This document shows positions 1-7,774 of a stretch of DNA of 23,588 bases, piece after piece. The notes under the pieces were generated by a model. That model saw only the letters and a list, made by a program, of their open reading frames with translations, did not search any database and was not told the origin of the DNA. Position 1 is the stretch's first letter, and every line of letters begins with the position of its first letter. This DNA comes from a virus. The stretch lies in the UHGV virus genome UHGV-1382276, one strand, 5' to 3'. The position numbers were made by a program, and so were the translations under genes.

Positions 1-255
1 TAACGCGTCGCCGGAAGCCACGTCATAAACCGTTTTACCCCGATGATCTTCAACGAGATGCCACGATGACTCATCACTGTTGAAAACAGCCACGAAACCA
101 GCCGGAATATCTGGCGGTGCAATATAGGTACTGTTTGCAGGCAGACCTGTATGAGGCGGAATATATGCGTCACCTTCACCAATAAATTCATTAGTTCCGG
201 CCAGCAGATTATAAATTTTTATGGTCCGTGGTTGTTCACTCATTCTGAATGCCAT
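1..255 (-). CDS. tfa: Tail fiber assembly protein Tfa, N-terminal 85 codons only; the rest of the gene lies beyond the window start
   Basis: Reverse-complement translation of 255..1 gives [85 protein letters not shown], which I recognise as the N-terminus of lambda Tfa. The ATG (255..253) overlaps the stf stop (TAATG). Absent from the ORF track because it is truncated by the window edge. Confidence 0.85.
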
Positions 256-3200
256 TATGCAAGCCTCACAATATAGTTAACGGTGATGGTATGTCCATGT
301 GAACCAATCGCAACGGAGTGCGTATGAGCACCAATACCGACAGTATGTGCGTGTGCACCTGCGCTTGCAGCAGTACCCGATACAGAGTGCGTATGAGCGC
401 CTGCAGAAGAAGTGTTAACACTGTATTTAGAATAATCAGGTGATCCACTTCCCGGAGCACCACTGGAACCACCTGAAACAAATGTCATCGAATGGGTATG
501 TGCACCGGCTGAAGCAGCCGTACCGCTAACACTATGGGTATGCGCACCAGTGTTATTCGTGGATTTAGTGCCGTAATCAAACGACGATGTGGTTTTCGTC
601 CCCAAATCAGTACTGGATGCGCTGGCGCTGTGGGTATGCGATTTTATGCCGTCCTGTTCCTGAGACAATACGGCACGACCACTGGCGGGCTTGCCCTTAA
701 TCGTCCAGCCACGCATATCAGGGATCACGCCTGACGGATAAGCGGCTGCAAGTTTCGGGTAGGCAGATTTGTCAAAAGTCTGCCCCTGCATCAGGGCATA
801 ACCAGACGGAACGGTATCTGATGGCCACGGGATTGGTGCGCCGATTGGGTAGCTTTCTGGTGGAAGATTTTTCGAGGTATAAACTTCTGCCCAGTCTTCC
901 TCAAAACCATAACCGTCTCTTGAAGAACGGTAGAACAGACCACCATTTCTGTAATGCGCCTTCATCTGCAGGGTCCGGCAACTTCCGACTCCGGTATAGA
1001 AGTTAACCAGAATATAGCTGTCGCCAGAGCGGGTGACATTATAAGCGCCTGATTCGGCATTCCAGGGAACGCCACCATCCGCATCGGCATATGTATCCGT
1101 TGCCCTTCTGGCAAAAGCAGCCACATGCGCGGCGGTTAAAGTAATATCTTTGGAACCATCAAACTCAACACCAGAAACCCGTCTTGGCGTTTGCAGCTTT
1201 GTTTCTGTTAATGCATTACCGTTCAGACTTGCGGACAGTTTGGTTCCAATAACCAGTTCGCCAGTTGCGTTATCAATAGCAAACGGTCTTAATGTATTCC
1301 AGCCACCATAAACATCACCTTGATTGGTAAGCAGCAGGTAAGTTTTAGCGCCATCATTACGCCATAATGCCCCATACTCCCCACCTATCATTCGAATCTG
1401 ATTACCACCACGCGCTACAATTTCGTCTGTGGCAAAAAGTTTTTTGCACGACAAATTATCGTTAACGATTAACGAATGAGACTCATAAAAACCACGCCCA
1501 CTCTTAAAATCAAGGATAACGTCCGCCGCGATACATTCAGTCGCTGGATTTGTTGCCCCAAACTTATAGGTCGTATCATTAACAACGAGATCAGCACCAG
1601 GTGCGGATATTGACAGGCCATCTTCGATAAACGCAAAAACAGGGAAAGCAGCGCCATCAACATAGAACACAGAGCGCAAATCATCGCCCTTATTACTCAT
1701 CATTATTGAGTGGATGGCTCGTTCATTGTTTTGATATTGCCAGAACATTCCATAAGCATAACGCCCCCTGTCAGTCCAGCCACCAGGCATAACAAATCCG
1801 TTAAACTCGCAGTTATTCATCGGATCGCCTGCGGTTCGCGTTGCCGTGGTGATAATGACCCTTGATGCCAGTTCGCTTACTGAGCCAGCAGAACGCATAA
1901 CAACAACAGGGTAATATTTTCCAGATGTTGCACCTGCAGGAGCGTTAACCCGCACATAACGCATACCACGCTTATCAGCAAAGTCTGTTTTACTGACCGC
2001 GTTAATGTTGTTCAGGAAGCGTCCCTTATCGGGTATATCAGCGCCGTTCTGGTCTTTCTGCAGACGTTTCTCTGCATTGTCATAGGCTGATTTTACTGCC
2101 TTTGGCGTTGCCGCCAGCGTTTCAGACGTACTGTTGGTCGCACTGCTGAGCTGTACTATCCCCTTTTTCGTCGTGCTCGCATCCTCAAGCGCCACGGCGG
2201 ATGCAATATCCTCTGCCCGTTTTGCCGCTGTCTCGGCGCGCGTTGCCGCGGATTCCGCCGTACTTTTGCTCTGTGCTGCCGCCGTCGCACTGCCAGCTGC
2301 CTCTGTCGCCTTCGTGGATGCTGTCGTGGCGCTGCCCTTCGCTGCTGACGCCTGTCTGGTCGCCTCATCTTTTGAAGCAGACGCCGATGATGCCGATGAC
2401 GCCGCCGAACTGGCTGACGATGCGGCAGCCGTTTTTGAGGATTCTGCGCTGGTTTCCGACGCTTTCGCGTTCGTTTCGGATGTCTTCGCTGCGGAAGCAG
2501 AACTCGCTGCTGCGCTGGCCTGTTCAGTGGCTTCGCCAGCCTTCGTTGTGGCTGTTGAAGCGGATGATGCGGCGCTTTCTGCCGATTTTCCGGCGGCGGT
2601 GGCACTGGCTGAGGCCTGCCCGGCACTTGTTGACGCGGCGCTGGCAGATGATGCAGCCGCTGTTTTTGAGCCTGCCGCAGCTGAGGCGCTCTGTCCCGCT
2701 GCCGTCTCAGAAGACTTAGCGTTCGTCTCGGACGTTTTTGCCGCCTTCGCGGAATTTCCTGCCGCCGTTGCCGAGGAAGTTGCGCTACTGGCGCTCGAGG
2801 ATGCGTTCGTTTCTGATGATTTCGCTGCCTCTTTTGAGGCCGCCGCATCCCGGGCTGAGGTGGCAGCTTCTGACGCTTTCGTGGTCGCGGTGGATGCAGA
2901 AGTGGCTGCTGATTGTTGTGACGCTGCGGCATTCGTTTCTGACGTTTTCGCGGCACTGGCACTGGTAGCTGCCGCGCTTTTTGAGGACTCTGCAGCAGCA
3001 GCACTTTTCGATGCTTCAGTGGCCTTTGTTGATGCCGTTCCTGCGCTGGAAGACGCTGACTGAGCCGACGTCGCGGCCTGCCCGGCTGATGTGCTGGCTG
3101 CGCGTGCTGAGCCTGCAGCATCAGTCGCATGGGTTGCCGCCTCACGGGCTGATGTGCTGGCATCACTGGCTGACTTCTTCGCGGCTGCCGTGTTCTGTGC

Positions 3201-3560
3201 CACCACGGACGCGTTACGCGCCACCTCTTCCACCATCAGCTCAAAACGGCGCAGTGCCTCCGGACGGGCATCATCCTCCGTCATGGCACCGAGAAAATCA
3301 TTCAGCGTACCGGGTCGGGAATCTTCATACACGGTGATGGTCCCGGCATGTGACGGCGGGAATCCTTCCACCAACAGAATAACGCTGTACTGACCGTACT
3401 CAACGTCCATGCTGTAACGCCCGGCTTCATCCGGATTTTCTGAGGCCAGCGTGTTCACCACCACCGTGGTGCTGTTACGTTTTGCTTTCAGCTGGATTGT
3501 GCAGTTCTGTACCGGTTTTCCTGTGCCGTCTTTCAGTACACCTGAAATCTTTACTGCCAT
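255..3560 (-). CDS. stf: Side tail fiber protein, intact, 1101 aa; lambda-like N-terminus and C-terminus with an expanded and partly replaced middle
   Basis: ORF track 255..3566. The N-terminal ~120 aa ([35 protein letters not shown]...) and the C-terminal ~200 aa (GAPIPWPSD...KSHTHSASA...[16 protein letters not shown]) match lambda Stf as I recall it. I place the start at the ATG 3560..3558, preceded by GGGGTG, rather than the GTG at 3566 used by the ORF track. Confidence 0.9.
2202..3209 (-). repeat. Ala/Ser/Thr-rich low-complexity coding repeat forming the stf shaft, with a recurring AAKTSETNA unit
   Basis: stf residues ~120-455 are almost entirely A/S/T/K/E with quasi-periodic units. AAKTSETNA recurs three times at ~71-83 aa spacing, and the DNA shows matching near-repeats around 2461-2490, 2711-2745 and 2930-2950. 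The plus-strand ORFs in this interval are shadows of this region. Confidence 0.7.
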
Positions 3561-3571
3561 ATTCACCCCAC

Positions 3572-3624: not shown

Positions 3625-4224
3625 TCAGAATTTATAACCGACACCCACGATGAAACCGTCAGTGCGCCAGTCGCCACTGCCGGAGCCTTCATAAGCAATA
3701 TCAATGGCCACGGATTCGGTCGGGTTAAACTGCACGCCAGCCCCCCACGCCAGAGACGTGTTGCTGTGGCGACCGTCATCACTTCCGGTCAGCACATCGT
3801 GCGTTTTCCCCTTGTTGTCAGTTACGCGGAGATAATCCCCGAAGAAAGTCGACACACGGCTGTAAGCCACACCCGCCATCGCATACACGCTGAACCATTC
3901 ATTCACGCGCACAGACGGCCCCGCCATTACGCTGAACCAGCGGTTACGAACGGAATCTTCATGCCAGCGGGTATCGCTGTAATGGGTCAGCTGGCGATTC
4001 TTGTCTCCTGCATAGCTGAATGACGTCACCATCCCCAGTGTGTCCGTAAACTCATAACGGTATTTCACGTTAATCCCGTTCAGATCATCGCTGCCGGGAA
4101 CGTTCGTCGAGGCATGAAGATACCCCGCGCTCAGCGTGGACTGATGTTCAGACGCCCATGCAGACGCACCGGATACGACCTGCCAGACTACTGCGGACAA
4201 AATAACAGCACATAATTTACGCAT
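3625..4224 (-). CDS. lom: Lom-like outer membrane beta-barrel protein (Ail/Lom/PagC family), 199 aa
   Basis: ORF track. Has an N-terminal signal-peptide-like segment (MRKLCAVILSAVVWQVVSGASAWA), a C-terminal ...AYEGSGSGDWRTDGFIVGVGYKF ending in aromatic Phe as in lambda Lom, and GAGGT/GAGAGG 6 nt upstream of the ATG. Same position as lambda lom (between J and stf) but the N-terminal two-thirds is diverged and it is 7 aa shorter than the 206 aa I recall for lambda. Confidence 0.85.
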   Translation of the reverse strand: MRKLCAVILSAVVWQVVSGASAWASEHQSTLSAGYLHASTNVPGSDDLNGINVKYRYEFTDTLGMVTSFSYAGDKNRQLTHYSDTRWHEDSVRNRWFSVMAGPSVRVNEWFSVYAMAGVAYSRVSTFFGDYLRVTDNKGKTHDVLTGSDDGRHSNTSLAWGAGVQFNPTESVAIDIAYEGSGSGDWRTDGFIVGVGYKF

Positions 4225-4291: not shown

Positions 4292-7200
4292 TCAGCTAAT
4301 CGTGATGCCTGCAGTGGCTTTCTTCATCACCACAACCAGCAGATCGCTGATACTGGTTGTTGGTGTCCAGTTATTCGCTCCTGATGAAGATACGGTGAAT
4401 GTCAGTGTCAGTGTCCCCTGTCCGGCAGGCATATCTATAACTGAGGAAAATACGCCCTGAGCATCCGTCGTGGACTGATTAAAAATCTCCTGACCATTGC
4501 GGGTCACTCTTAACCGGCAGGTTGAATACCAGTATGACTGTTGGTTATTACTGTTGAAATTCTCATGCTTACCACCGCGGAATAACACTGGAGGTATCAT
4601 GACCTGCCGGTCAAACTTCTGATCATCACTGATTCTTACCGTGATGGTGCCACTGGCATAACTGTTCGTGCGGGGGAAAGACTTGCTGACCGTTTTGACA
4701 ATATCGCCTTCAATCTGATTGGCTGACAGTTTCCCCTTAATCTGACAGTTCTCATTAATCGTGACGTTGTTGAGCGTCCCGGAGTTCGCATTCACACTGC
4801 CACTGATATCCGCATTTTTAGCAGTCAGCTTTCCGTCCGGTGTCAGGGAAAATGCCGGTGGATTTCCACCGCTGGTAATGGTGGGGGCCGTCAGGCGTTT
4901 CAGGAACACGTCGTTCATGAATATCTGATCGCCCTGACCAACAAACATCGGTTTTGTGTTGCCATTCGCAGGATTAACCATCGCAATCCTGTCCGCCGCC
5001 AGCAGCACCTGACTCTGCATGCCGTCAGGGGTGTTCTCAATACCGGCACCAATACCCGCGATATAAAGGCGTCCGTCCTGCATCTGCTGCAGCTTCACAG
5101 CCCACATGCTGTTCAGGTTATTATTTGTATCAACCTGAACCTTCTGTATCTGCTGAATTGCCGCACTCTGGTCTTCCAGTTTCTTATTGACGGTCTGCGT
5201 GATTTCATTGCTGACATCCGTAATGGACGTCCTGATTTCAGCCAGGTCAGGCGCAAGCTGACCGTTATCAATCTGCGTCCACAGCTCCTGAGCCAGATGG
5301 CTTTTCCCTATCTCGCCTTTGAAAAAATCCAGATAGCCGGATGCATCATCACTCGGCTGACCAACAGCCTCCACGAATGCCGATTTGCCAACGGTGTTCA
5401 CACTGCGGATATAAAAGTAATAATCATGGCCCGGTTTGATATTGATACTGGCGGCTATCCAGTACATCCCCGTGCCAAGATAGCGCGCGCTGGTTTCAAC
5501 CTGCCTGATATCCGCAATCCGCTTTTCCGAGAACCAGAACTCAAACTGTACCGTCGGATCATAAACCGCAAGATGCGGCGTGGCGGTTATCTGAAAATAC
5601 CCCGGTGTCAGCTCAATCTGCGACGGCGCTGCCGGTGCGGCAATCCGGAACGATACCGATGCCGGATCGCCCTGCTGCCCCCACGCATTTACTGCCCGGA
5701 CTGTCAGCCTGTAGTTCCCCAGCGCCAGTTGTGTGAAGCGGTATGTGGTTTCCGCCGTCCGGGCTGTGCTGACCAGCCGCTCACTGCCGTCATCCGCTGC
5801 CACGGTCAGGCGAAGCATAAAGCTCACCCCCTTCACCACCTTCGGCGTGTCCCAGCGGGCCAGTACCTGATATTCCCCGCTGTCTGCGGTGACTTCGGCA
5901 GTCAGGTGCTGCACCGCTGGCGGCGTGACACCATTCACCGTGCCGCTCTGGTCGCCGTCAAAGTGCGCCCCGTTATCCACGATGGCCTCTTTTTCCGGTA
6001 CATGCTGCACGGCGGTGATGGCATACATACCGTCGTCGTTCTCACGGATACTCACGCAGCGGAACAGGCGCTGGCGCAGCGTCGGCAGCTTCAGCCCCCA
6101 CACGCTGTATCCGGCAACGCCGTCAGGAACACGGCTCACTTTTACCTTCACGCCGTCGGTGACGGACTGGACCTCCACGCTGACCGGATTGCCACTTCCG
6201 TCAACCAGGCTTATCAGCGTGGTACCGGAGGATGGCAGCGTGATTTCACGGTCGAGCGTCAGCGTCCGGGTCTGGCTGTTCACCGCCAGCACGCGCCCGC
6301 CGGTGCGGATACCGGCATAGTCATCATCGCAGATTTCAATGACATCGCCCGGCACATGGCGAAGCCCTTCTGCGCCCACGCTGAAATCCACGGTCTGTGT
6401 TTCCAGCAGTTCTGTTTTAATCAGCCACAGCCCGGCGCGATGTGCCTGCCCCCGGCTGGTACAGCCAAAGGCATCCATCTTCGTGACGTTACGACCGTAA
6501 CGGGCAATGGCCTGCGTGTCCTCCACAAGCTCTGTCGCCGTCTCCCAGCCGTTATTCGGGTCAATCCAGTTCACCTCAACGGCATTATGGCGGTCCTTCA
6601 GGGCGCTGAAGCTGTAGCGGAACGGCGCGCCATCATCCGGCATCACCACATTACTGCGGTTATAGGTCCACACCTTATCTGATGGTCGGTCCTGCACGAA
6701 CGTCAGCGTCTGCCCGTTCCATACCGGCATACAGCGCATCGCCGAGCAGAAATCACTGAGCACATCCCACGCCTTGCGCTGTGTGGTCAGGTACGCATTA
6801 CAGATGATGCGCGGCTCCGTGCCGCCAAAGCCGTCCGGCACTGACTGGTCGCAGTACTGGCCGATGACATACAGCGCCCATTTATCCACATCCGCCGCAC
6901 CAAGACGTTTCCCCATGCCGTAGCGCGGATGGGTCAGCATATCCCACAGACACCAGGCCATGTTGTTGCTGTATGCCGGTTTAAACGTTCCGTCCCAGAT
7001 ACCGCTGTATTGCCGCGTCTGCGGGTTATAGTTCGACGGCACCTGCAGAATGCGCCCGCGCAGATGATAATTACGGCTCACCTGCTGGCTGCCGAACTGC
7101 TCCGAATCCACCTGCACGCCGACCAGTGCCGTGTTCGGGTAGCCCTGTTTCACATCGATGATTTCGGTGTATGACGACCAGAGCGTTTTGTTCTGCAGCT

Positions 7201-7774
7201 GGTCTGTGGTGCTGTCCGGCGTCATCCTGCGCATCCGGATATTGAACGGGCGCGGCGGCAGGTTACCCACCACCACCGAGGCCAGATACTGCGAGGTGGT
7301 TTTGCCCTTAATGGTGATGTCTTTTTCCGTCACCCAGCCACCATTACGCTGTATCTGAACCAGCAGGCGAACTTCCGACGGATTCCGGTCCCCCTTTGAG
7401 GTGGTTTCCACCAGTGCCTGCACGCCGAAGGTAAAACGCAGTCGGTCAATGTTTGCCGACGTGATGGTCCGGGTGATCGGCGTGTCGTATTTCACTTCCG
7501 TACCCAGCACCGTCTCGGAGCCGGAGGATTCAAATCCCTCCGGCGGTGTCTGCTCCTGCTCACCGGCCCGGAACACCACCGTGACGCCGGAGATATTGGT
7601 ATTCCCCTCACTGTCCAGCACTGGCGTACTGTTCAGCAGCACGCTTTTTAATCCATCCACCGGACCTTCAACCGGCCCTTCGCTGATGGCATCGATCACA
7701 CTCAGCAACTGCGTGGACTTCAGGTTGTCCTTCGCTTCGCGCGGGGTATGCCCCTTACTGCTGCCTTTACCCAT
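4292..7774 (-). CDS. J: Tail tip central fiber / host specificity protein J, 1160 aa
   Basis: ORF track. The N-terminal ~800 aa ([34 protein letters not shown]...) match lambda J. The C-terminal ~350 aa diverge from what I recall of lambda J and are 28 aa longer than lambda's 1132. Confidence 0.93.

What the first reader, a model, noticed from the sequence alone, without database searches (positions are those of the whole stretch)
852..2078. stf central ~410-aa module has no counterpart in lambda Stf, making a mosaic fibre
Seen in sequence: between the Ala-rich shaft and the lambda-like C-terminal region (resuming at GAPIPWPSD) lies a block ([39 protein letters not shown] ... [21 protein letters not shown]) that I do not recognise from lambda Stf, which has a shorter and different segment here. 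Inference: modular exchange has given lambda-like tail-attachment and distal tip domains joined by a foreign middle domain, as seen in longer E. coli prophage side tail fibres. This may change fibre length or geometry, or add a second binding function.
Basis: inference. Interest (0 to 1): 0.4.

Follow-up and report, generated by a model that had tools for sequence, protein, structure and literature searches.

The report
StfR-type middle of side tail fibre
The roughly 410-residue stretch that phage lambda lacks is real, but it is the ordinary middle section of the common E. coli prophage side tail fibre StfR, built from three exchangeable tail-fibre modules also found in T4-, Mu- and P2-type phages.

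Summary
The stf ORF (window 255-3560, minus strand, 1101 aa) has lambda counterparts for residues 1-499 and 904-1101. Residues about 491-903 have none, even at E<=10.

The fibre is not unusual. It matches E. coli K-12 Rac prophage StfR (b1372) at all but about 20 positions up to residue about 1010, and the block differs at 2 of 409 residues. The block DNA is in 1307 of 5426 complete E. coli genomes; lambda's own middle segment is in 584. Isolated lambdoid phages such as mEp332, 2H10, ev099, Kati and Chlobot carry it.

The block is three modules joined by conserved linker motifs:
- **A (519-704):** a beta-sandwich with no Pfam family or close solved structure.
- **B (705-777):** the T4 gp34 triple beta-helix and P4 prism, also in Mu S.
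- **C (812-903):** a Mu S'/P2 H-type domain that carries at least five different tips in other fibres.

Natural variants swap A+B, B or C independently, and a P2-type fibre carries the same block.

Most likely reading: structural shaft and adaptor modules that carry the T4 gp37-type receptor-binding tip. A second binding function, most plausibly in A, is not excluded and has no positive evidence. This is already-known biology of low interest.

In passing: a 45-nt in-frame deletion at the fibre's C-terminus, found in no E. coli genome or phage record searched.

The parts
255..3560 (-). stf: side tail fibre gene, 1101 aa, StfR-type allele. The stop TAA at 255-257 overlaps the ATG of tfa.
   Evidence: ORF and translation. 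Matches K-12 StfR at all but about 20 positions up to residue about 1010. The gene is called identically in the source contig.
3159..3560 (-). Residues 1-134: N-terminal tail-attachment domain (Pfam phage_tail_N).
   Evidence: PF08400, 239 bits. Residues 1-94 match the solved chain 9e7m_Ta at E=2e-51. 80% identical to lambda.
2196..3158 (-). Residues 135-455: Ala/Ser/Thr-rich repetitive shaft, about 105 aa longer than lambda's.
   Evidence: Composition 37% A, 25% S, 13% T and GC 0.62. Overlapping tblastn pieces against lambda.
2079..2195 (-). Residues 456-494: conserved junction [35 protein letters not shown] followed by SAYD. The left break point with lambda lies right after ATPKAVK (window 2091-2111).
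   Evidence: Alignment with lambda orf-401. The same motif precedes the block in a P2 H-type fibre, P0017.
2007..2078 (-). Residues 495-518: linker repeat [24 protein letters not shown], as in Mu tail fibre S.
   Evidence: Weak local matches to Mu S residues 146-172 and 181-205 in 8ju3/5yvq (per-stretch E 0.7-6.5).
1449..2006 (-). Residues 519-704: module A, an all-beta domain of unknown function. Conserved motifs: NAPxG..GKYYP, PMNNCxFNG, GGWSDRG, ERAIHS, FYVExRAFP.
1230..1448 (-). Residues 705-777: module B, T4 gp34-type triple beta-helix plus P4 beta-prism. Also present in Mu S.
   Evidence: PF21446 Gp34_trimer, 95.7 bits against a cut-off of 27. Matches gp34 residues 1036-1106 (4uxe/5nxf/9x3r) and Mu S residues 268-339 (5yvq). 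Domain assignment from PMC5537660.
1128..1229 (-). Residues 778-811: linker repeat [34 protein letters not shown], the 'GNAxTATKLQT...FDGSxDITL' type. This is the break point between B and C.
   Evidence: Identity to variant P0067 ends here, and identity to P0073/P0105 begins here.
852..1127 (-). Residues 812-903: module C, a Mu S' (gp52)/P2 H-type pre-tip adaptor domain.
   Evidence: Matches 8ju3 residues 321-409 (best-stretch E about 8e-21; whole-chain E 1.5e-26). PF12604 gp37_C, 24.8 bits against a cut-off of 22.5 when the block is scanned alone. Followed by at least five different downstream tips in other fibres.
258..851 (-). Residues 904-1101: T4 gp37/lambda-type receptor-binding tip (collar, HxH needle, variable head). 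It lacks 15 residues near the C-terminus.
   Evidence: 2xgf E=3e-77, aligned to chain residues 27-222, which would be T4 gp37 811-1006 if the chain starts at residue 785 (recalled, not checked). PF07484 Collar and PF03335. 62% identical to lambda. Deletion shown.
1..255 (-). tfa: tail fibre assembly chaperone. Only the N-terminal 85 codons are present; the gene runs off the contig.
   Evidence: 81 residues are 97.5% identical to lambda Tfa. Called with PF28596 Caudo_TAP_N in the source contig.

Best explanation
**What it is.** The block is the standard middle section of the StfR-type lambdoid side tail fibre. It is a chain of three tail-fibre modules joined to one another and to their neighbours by short conserved linker motifs: ATPKAVK, the [10 protein letters not shown] repeat, the GNAxTxTKLQT...FDGSxDITL repeat, and [19 protein letters not shown].

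- **Module A (residues 519-704):** an independently folding beta-sandwich, probably three copies forming a lateral knob.
- **Module B (705-777):** the triple beta-helix and P4 beta-prism of the T4 proximal fibre gp34.
- **Module C (812-903):** a Mu S'/P2 H-type domain that in other fibres sits just before the distal tip.

**How it most likely works.** The three modules lengthen and stiffen the distal half of the fibre. They present the T4 gp37-type tip, whose variable head domain, folded with the help of Tfa, makes the receptor contact. The conserved linkers are the points at which recombination swaps neighbouring modules, and this produced the difference from lambda.

**Shown:** the homologies, the near-identity to StfR, the independent exchange of modules, and the presence of the block in isolated phages.

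**Inferred:** the trimeric architecture, the spacer/adaptor role, and the absence of a receptor contact within the block.
For: - **Identity.** Matches K-12 StfR at all but about 20 positions up to residue about 1010, with 2 differences in the 409-aa block.
- **Abundance.** The block DNA is in 1307 of 5426 complete E. coli genomes at >=80% coverage, annotated stfR or prophage tail fibre. It is also in phages mEp332, 2H10, ev099, PhiR34_1, Kati and Chlobot.
- **Module B.** PF21446, 95.7 bits. It matches gp34 residues 1036-1106, which PMC5537660 describes as triple beta-helix plus P4 prism.
- **Module C.** Matches Mu S' (8ju3) residues 321-409, whole-chain E=1.5e-26. In 50%-cluster representatives it is followed by at least five unrelated downstream tips.
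- **Independent exchange.** P0067 replaces C only. P0073 and P0102 carry 60-70% diverged A+B with identical C. P0105 lacks B. P0110 has the same B+C with an unrelated S74-type tip. P0017 has a P2 H-type N-terminus with the same block.
- **Separate distributions.** The best-match stretches in the 1.84-billion-protein search fall into three ranges of the block: 1-204, 213-320 and 280-406.
- **Receptor specificity lies elsewhere.** It maps to the head domain of the gp37-type tip in T4 (PMC5221442; PMC9659904). The tip here matches 2xgf at E=3e-77.
Against: - No experiment or trimer model bears on what the block does.
- The monomer AF2 model of the whole block was poor (pLDDT 44), so the architecture of B and C rests on sequence homology alone.
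- A and B diverge (60-70% identity) between fibres that share identical C and collar. That could reflect selection on a host-contacting surface rather than drift.
- From memory, module C's solved relative lies within the distal host-recognition part of Mu gp52. The paper was not available to check.
Confidence: 0.72

Rival explanations
1. One of the modules, most plausibly the beta-sandwich module A, is an auxiliary adhesion domain. It would bind a surface glycan (O-antigen, core or capsule) along the side of the fibre. The StfR-type fibre would then have two binding functions, with the gp37-type tip as the other.
For: - A folds on its own as a beta-sandwich (pLDDT 75.5, pTM 0.78).
- A+B vary at 58-66% identity among E. 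coli fibres that share the same C and collar.
- Side tail fibres of lambda-like phages can bind LPS sugars: Gifsy-1 Stf binds Gal II (PMC12312913).
Against: - There is no detectable similarity to any characterised lectin or carbohydrate-binding module.
- The same domain occurs mid-fibre in many unrelated fibres. In Bas54 it sits in a fibre with several 'permutable' pseudo-domains of unknown function, as described in PMC12143355.
- The Cys and His that are invariant in the enterobacterial copies are not kept in Bas54.
Confidence: 0.2
2. Module C plus its neighbours is a relic of an older distal tip. A Mu S'/P2 H-type half-fibre was extended by fusion to a gp37-type tip. The block would then be a historical passenger with no role beyond holding the chain together.
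For: - C is homologous to the distal part of Mu S'.
- In many representatives C is followed by only a 79-residue cap, as in Mu S'.
- The whole block plus tip also occurs on a P2 H-type N-terminus (P0017).
Against: - C precedes at least five different tips. That fits a general adaptor better than a relic.
- The block is very well conserved in E. coli: 729 records at >=99% identity.
- This reading overlaps with the best explanation rather than excluding it.
Confidence: 0.06
3. The block is an artefact: a mis-assembly, a frameshifted pseudogene, or a segment that Ur-lambda Stf also has.
For: The window is a metagenome contig of only 8.3x coverage. The gene carries an otherwise unseen 45-nt deletion at its 3' end.
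Against: - The reading frame is open over all 1101 codons.
- The block is 99.5% identical to StfR of K-12.
- It is present in over a thousand finished genomes and in sequenced phages.
- Lambda's stf region shows no similarity to it in any frame.
Confidence: 0.01

Closest known systems
StfR, side tail fibre homologue of the Rac prophage of E. coli K-12 (b1372, 1120 aa)
   Same: Same architecture from the first residue to the needle. Identical at all but about 20 positions up to residue about 1010. The 409-aa block differs at 2 residues. Same gene order: J, lom, stf, tfa.
   Different: The head-domain loops of the tip differ. The window's fibre lacks 15 residues (NAAGNAENTVKNIAF) before the C-terminal NYIVRLA.
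Ur-lambda Stf (orf-401 + orf-314, 774 aa)
   Same: N-terminal attachment domain (80% identity), Ala-rich shaft, the ATPKAVK junction, the gp37-type tip (62%) and a 97.5% identical Tfa N-terminus.
   Different: Lambda has an unrelated middle of about 140 residues where this fibre has about 410. Lambda's shaft is about 105 residues shorter.
T4 gp34 C-terminal region (PDB 4UXE, 5NXF, 5NXH; Pfam PF21446)
   Same: Module B matches gp34 residues 1036-1106, the triple beta-helix plus P4 beta-prism.
   Different: Only this roughly 70-100 residue piece is shared. In T4 it lies in the proximal half-fibre of a myovirus. Here it lies in the distal half of a siphovirus side fibre.
Phage Mu tail fibres S (gp49, PDB 5YVQ) and S' (gp52, PDB 8JU3), and P2 gpH-type fibres
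   Same: The linker repeat and module B match Mu S. Module C matches 8ju3 residues 321-409 (whole-chain E=1.5e-26) and P2-like fibres at about 50% identity. One E. coli fibre (P0017) has a P2 H-type N-terminus followed by this same block and tip.
   Different: Mu S' ends 79 residues after module C. Here C is followed by the 198-residue gp37-type tip. The N-terminal attachment domains are unrelated.
Mobile tail-fibre pseudo-domains of the RBPseg atlas (D11, D40 and D73 from distal gp34, and the unclassified D42; PMC12143355)
   Same: The concept is the same: mid-fibre domains that move between fibre classes. Module A occurs in the Bas54 (MaxBurger) lateral tail fibre bas54_0027 at residues 593-769. 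That protein has a C-terminal S74 domain, like the TC12 fibres described as carrying D42.
   Different: Whether module A is D42 was not tested.

Membership tests
Lambdoid side tail fibre of the StfR type | N-terminal phage_tail_N attachment domain | tested here: met
   PF08400 covers residues 1-134 over the full profile, 239 bits against a cut-off of 26.6.
Lambdoid side tail fibre of the StfR type | Gene position: downstream of J and lom, immediately upstream of tfa, within a lambda-like tail module | tested here: met
   ORF map and source-contig gene calls. The whole window is 97-98% identical to lambdoid phages Chlobot and 2H10. Tfa N-terminus is 97.5% identical to lambda's.
Lambdoid side tail fibre of the StfR type | Full-length collinearity with K-12 StfR, including the 409-aa middle block | tested here: met
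   Global alignment: 2 differences in the block. Divergence is confined to the tip head and a 15-aa C-terminal deletion.
Lambda Stf proper (lambda-type middle segment) | Middle segment homologous to lambda residues about 387-530 (VVMDETNRKAPLDSPALTG...) | tested here: not met
   No alignment for residues 500-903 at E<=1e-3 or at E<=10.
T4 gp34 C-terminal trimerisation region (PF21446) | Profile match above Pfam's gathering score | tested here: met
   95.7 bits (whole protein) and 99.9 bits (block alone) against a cut-off of 27, profile positions 24/25-116 of 116.
T4 gp34 C-terminal trimerisation region (PF21446) | Trimeric triple beta-helix / beta-prism structure | not testable with these tools
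   Only monomer AF2 was available. This part of the model had pLDDT 25-40.
Mu S' (gp52)-type distal domain / Pfam gp37_C (PF12604) | Sequence match to the solved chain and to the Pfam profile | tested here: met
   8ju3 residues 321-409, best-stretch E about 8e-21 (whole-chain E 1.5e-26). PF12604 scores 24.8 bits against a cut-off of 22.5 when the block is scanned alone, which is marginal. It is not listed (E<=0.1) when the whole protein is scanned.
T4 gp37 / lambda Stf receptor-binding tip family (PMC9659904) | Last roughly 200-215 residues homologous to the gp37 collar, needle and head, followed by a Tfa/gp38-type chaperone gene | tested here: met
   2xgf E=3e-77. Collar PF07484 and HxH repeat PF03335. 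tfa lies directly downstream. Caveat: 15 residues before the C-terminal NYIVRLA are missing.
RBPseg mobile pseudo-domain D42 | Structural or sequence identity with the D42 class defined in PMC12143355 | not tested
   Module A is present in a Bas54 TC12-like fibre.

The most novel reading that the evidence does not exclude
Module A (residues 519-704) is a widespread, mobile, independently folding beta-sandwich domain with no Pfam family and no close solved structure. It might be a lateral glycan-binding domain. The very common StfR-type fibres, and the many unrelated fibres that carry the domain, would then have a second binding site separate from the tip.
Probability: 0.15. Interest if true: 0.45.

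Novelty: already known. Interest (0 to 1): 0.15.

Why it matters
There is little new biology here. The finding rediscovers that the side tail fibres of lambda-like phages are mosaics and that lambda's own fibre is the less common short form.

The practical value is a domain map of a very common E. coli prophage fibre, with natural break points. Such a map is useful for designing chimeric fibres for phage or cosmid delivery.

It also flags module A as an abundant tail-fibre domain that still has no family, structure or function.

Tried and rejected
- **Whole-block structure model.** AF2 on the 409-aa block as a monomer with a 16-sequence alignment gave mean pLDDT 44. Foldseek against the PDB with that model gave nothing better than E=0.045. 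This is expected for intertwined trimers. Both were discarded.
- **Family libraries.** NCBIfam gave nothing for the fibre or the block. Pfam gave nothing for 14 diverse copies of module A.
- **A catalytic or metal site in module A.** I considered this because Cys66, His99, Glu95 and Asp79 are invariant or nearly so in alignment A3. The Cys and His are not kept in the Bas54 copy, and model coordinates could not be inspected, so I dropped it.
- **GC content as evidence of foreign origin.** The block is 44-50% GC against 62% in the shaft. The shaft's value follows from its Ala codons, so this is not independent evidence.
- **Tool limits.** The afdb50 library was not available. The search for homologous proteins appears to return only proteins up to about 1.7 times the query length, so its hits were truncated gene calls and fragments.
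- **Papers not held.** Mori et al. 2024 on Mu gp52, Bartual et al. 2010 on the gp37 tip, and the RBPseg supplements.

Full report
**1. The observation**

The window carries one long minus-strand ORF, 255..3566 (1103 codons from a GTG). Its likely start is the ATG at 3560, giving 1101 residues. Window 852-2078 corresponds to residues 495-903.

I fetched the lambda stf-tfa region (NC_001416, locus L001) and ran tblastn with the whole protein. Lambda aligns to residues 1-352 (80% identity), 315-499 (58%, the end of orf-401) and 904-1101 (62%, orf-314). Nothing aligns in between. With the block alone at E<=10, only a chance match at E=0.96 appears.

The left break is directly after the conserved ATPKAVK (residues 484-490). 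The right break is at about residues 903-906, just before GAPIPWPSD. Lambda has about 140 unrelated residues here. The shaft is also about 105 residues longer than lambda's.

**2. What the fibre is**

The window is a lambda-like structural module in reverse orientation: Nu1/A ... H, M, L, K, I, J, lom, stf and the start of tfa. It is 97-98% identical to lambdoid phages Chlobot, 2H10, PhiR34_1, Kati, mEp332 and ev099. It is the whole of an ENA metagenome contig, ERZ507994 NODE_268, at 8.3x coverage.

A global alignment with StfR of the Rac prophage of E. coli K-12 (b1372, 1120 aa) shows identity at all but about 20 positions up to residue about 1010. There are only two differences within the 409-residue block.

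The block's DNA is present at >=80% coverage in 1307 of 5426 complete E. coli genomes, usually annotated stfR. Lambda's own middle segment is in 584. So this is the common form and lambda's is the rarer one. Only 20 of 50,697 phage records carry >=80% of the block; they include the isolated lambdoid phages listed above.

**3. Anatomy of the block**

Pfam finds these domains in the whole protein:
- phage_tail_N at residues 1-134.
- Gp34_trimer at 663-762.
- Collar at 907-954.
- A Phage_fiber repeat at 1002-1015.
- A marginal gp37_C hit when the block is scanned alone.

Sequence search of the PDB shows:
- Block residues 212-283 match T4 gp34 residues 1036-1106. Granell et al. describe this stretch as triple beta-helix flanking the P4 beta-prism (PMC5537660).
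- Block residues 216-289 match Mu S residues 268-339 (5yvq).
- Block residues 318-406 match residues 321-409 of the Mu S/S' construct 8ju3 (whole-chain E=1.5e-26).
- The first 28 residues resemble a repeat in Mu S.
- The last 198 residues of the fibre match the T4 gp37 tip (2xgf) at E=3e-77. This is the shared T4/lambda receptor-binding tip family described in PMC9659904.

That leaves Stf residues 519-704, module A, which has no Pfam, NCBIfam or PDB sequence match.
- An alignment of 14 copies at 31-66% identity shows conserved motifs: NAPxG..GKYYP, PMNNCxFNG, GGWSDRG, ERAIHS and FYVExRAFP.
- Predicted alone, it gives an all-beta model with pLDDT 75.5 and pTM 0.78.
- Foldseek against predicted viral structures finds the same fold (TM 0.7-0.83) inside tail fibres of phage JenK1, Vibrio phage phi 3, Aeromonas phiAS4 gp37 and the rV5-like phage navn.
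- tblastn finds it in 262 phage records. These include T5-like, 9g-like, Aeromonas T4-like and Vequintavirinae phages, for example Bas54 lateral tail fibre bas54_0027 at residues 593-769.

**4. Evidence that the modules move independently**

In a search of 1.84 billion cluster representatives, 2740 proteins match at E<=1e-3. The best-matching stretches fall into three ranges of the block: about 1-204, 213-320 and 280-406.

Natural E. coli variants make the point directly:
- P0067 is identical up to the GNALTxTKLQ linker, has a different domain in place of C, and is identical again from the collar.
- P0073 and P0102 have A+B at 60-70% identity but C and the collar at >=90%.
- P0105 lacks B.
- P0110 has the same B and C followed by an unrelated tip with an S74 chaperone domain.
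- P0017 has a P2 H-type N-terminus (PF12571) followed by the same block and tip.

Among the representatives, module C is followed by at least five different continuations. These include the gp37 collar, a 79-residue Mu S'-type cap, and a 158-residue tip starting 'GDVGALPLSGG'. C therefore behaves as a pre-tip adaptor.

**5. How it most likely works**

The best-supported reading is that the block is a run of structural modules: knob A, beta-helix/prism B and adaptor C. They extend the distal half of the fibre and carry the gp37-type tip. The tip's head domain makes the receptor contact, as shown for T4 (PMC5221442). The Tfa chaperone encoded just downstream helps the tip fold. The conserved linkers are the recombination points.

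The homologies and the exchanges are shown. The trimeric architecture and the purely structural role are inferred.

The main rival is a second, lateral binding function, most plausibly in module A. Its support is indirect: an independent beta-sandwich fold, divergence of A+B between fibres that share the same tip base, and the precedent that a lambda-like Stf can bind LPS sugar (PMC12312913). I put it at about 0.2.

An artefact or an overlooked lambda homologue is excluded.

**6. Comparison with what is known, and novelty**

The protein is a member of the StfR type of lambdoid side tail fibre. All the features I could test are met. The one lambda-specific feature, the lambda-type middle segment, is not. 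Mosaicism of tail fibres between lambdoid, P2-, Mu- and T-even phages is long established; PMC3945230 summarises the classic references. Mobile mid-fibre domains, including pieces of distal gp34 and an unclassified domain D42 in Vequintavirinae fibres, were catalogued recently (PMC12143355). Module A may be D42, but I could not test that.

The finding is therefore already known in kind and in sequence. What is added here is a domain map with natural break points, and the note that module A still lacks a family, a structure and a function.

**7. Seen in passing**

The window's stf lacks 45 nt (15 codons...TITV[NAAGNAENTVKNIAF]NYIVRLA) that are present in StfR, lambda, Chlobot and all the best E. 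coli matches; T4 gp37 has about 20 residues at the corresponding position, beyond the aligned stretch. The missing stretch begins with GTTAA, and GTTAA recurs immediately after it. A 40-nt probe across the junction finds nothing in 5426 E. coli genomes or 50,697 phage records. The exact protein is on record only in this contig. Whether the fibre still assembles is unknown.

The last 250 residues of J are only 57% identical to lambda J, and Lom is 43% identical to lambda Lom.

Noticed in passing
window 258-299 (junction at about 275/276), minus strand: There is an in-frame 45-nt deletion at the 3' end of stf. It removes 15 residues (NAAGNAENTVKNIAF) between HGHTITV and NYIVRLA. StfR, lambda Stf, Chlobot and all the best E. 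coli matches have them. The missing stretch begins with GTTAA, and GTTAA recurs immediately after it. A 40-nt junction probe finds no match in 5426 complete E. coli genomes or 50,697 phage records, and the exact protein is on record only in this 8.3x metagenome contig. It could impair tip folding, or it could be a rare variant or an error.
   Followed up: partly
window 4292-5050, minus strand (C-terminal ~250 codons of J, 4292-7774): The tail tip protein J is 1160 aa. Its last ~250 residues are only 57% identical to lambda J, and GC drops to 0.46-0.47 there. This suggests a receptor specificity different from lambda's LamB.
   Followed up: no
window 3625-4224, minus strand: The Lom homologue (199 aa) is only 43% identical to lambda Lom, although the neighbouring genes are 80-97% identical to lambda's.
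   Followed up: no
window 2196-3158, minus strand: The Ala/Ser/Thr-rich shaft of the fibre (37% Ala, 25% Ser, 13% Thr) is about 105 residues longer than lambda's. The extra length shows up as overlapping alignments to the same lambda repeats.
   Followed up: partly
window 380-560, minus strand (tip head, about residues 1010-1050): The variable head of the gp37-type tip (..[26 protein letters not shown]..) differs from those of K-12 StfR, lambda, T4 and Chlobot. It is identical in other E. coli fibres (P0067, P0105). It is therefore an existing receptor-specificity allele re-assorted onto this fibre.
   Followed up: partly
locus L006 (Escherichia phage MaxBurger/Bas54) 2198-6016, protein residues 593-769: The Bas54 lateral tail fibre bas54_0027 (1272 aa, with a C-terminal S74 domain) contains one clear copy of module A (E=6e-34 with the A3 profile). 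This may be the 'D42' mobile pseudo-domain of the RBPseg atlas. The Cys and His that are invariant in the enterobacterial copies are not conserved there.
   Followed up: partly
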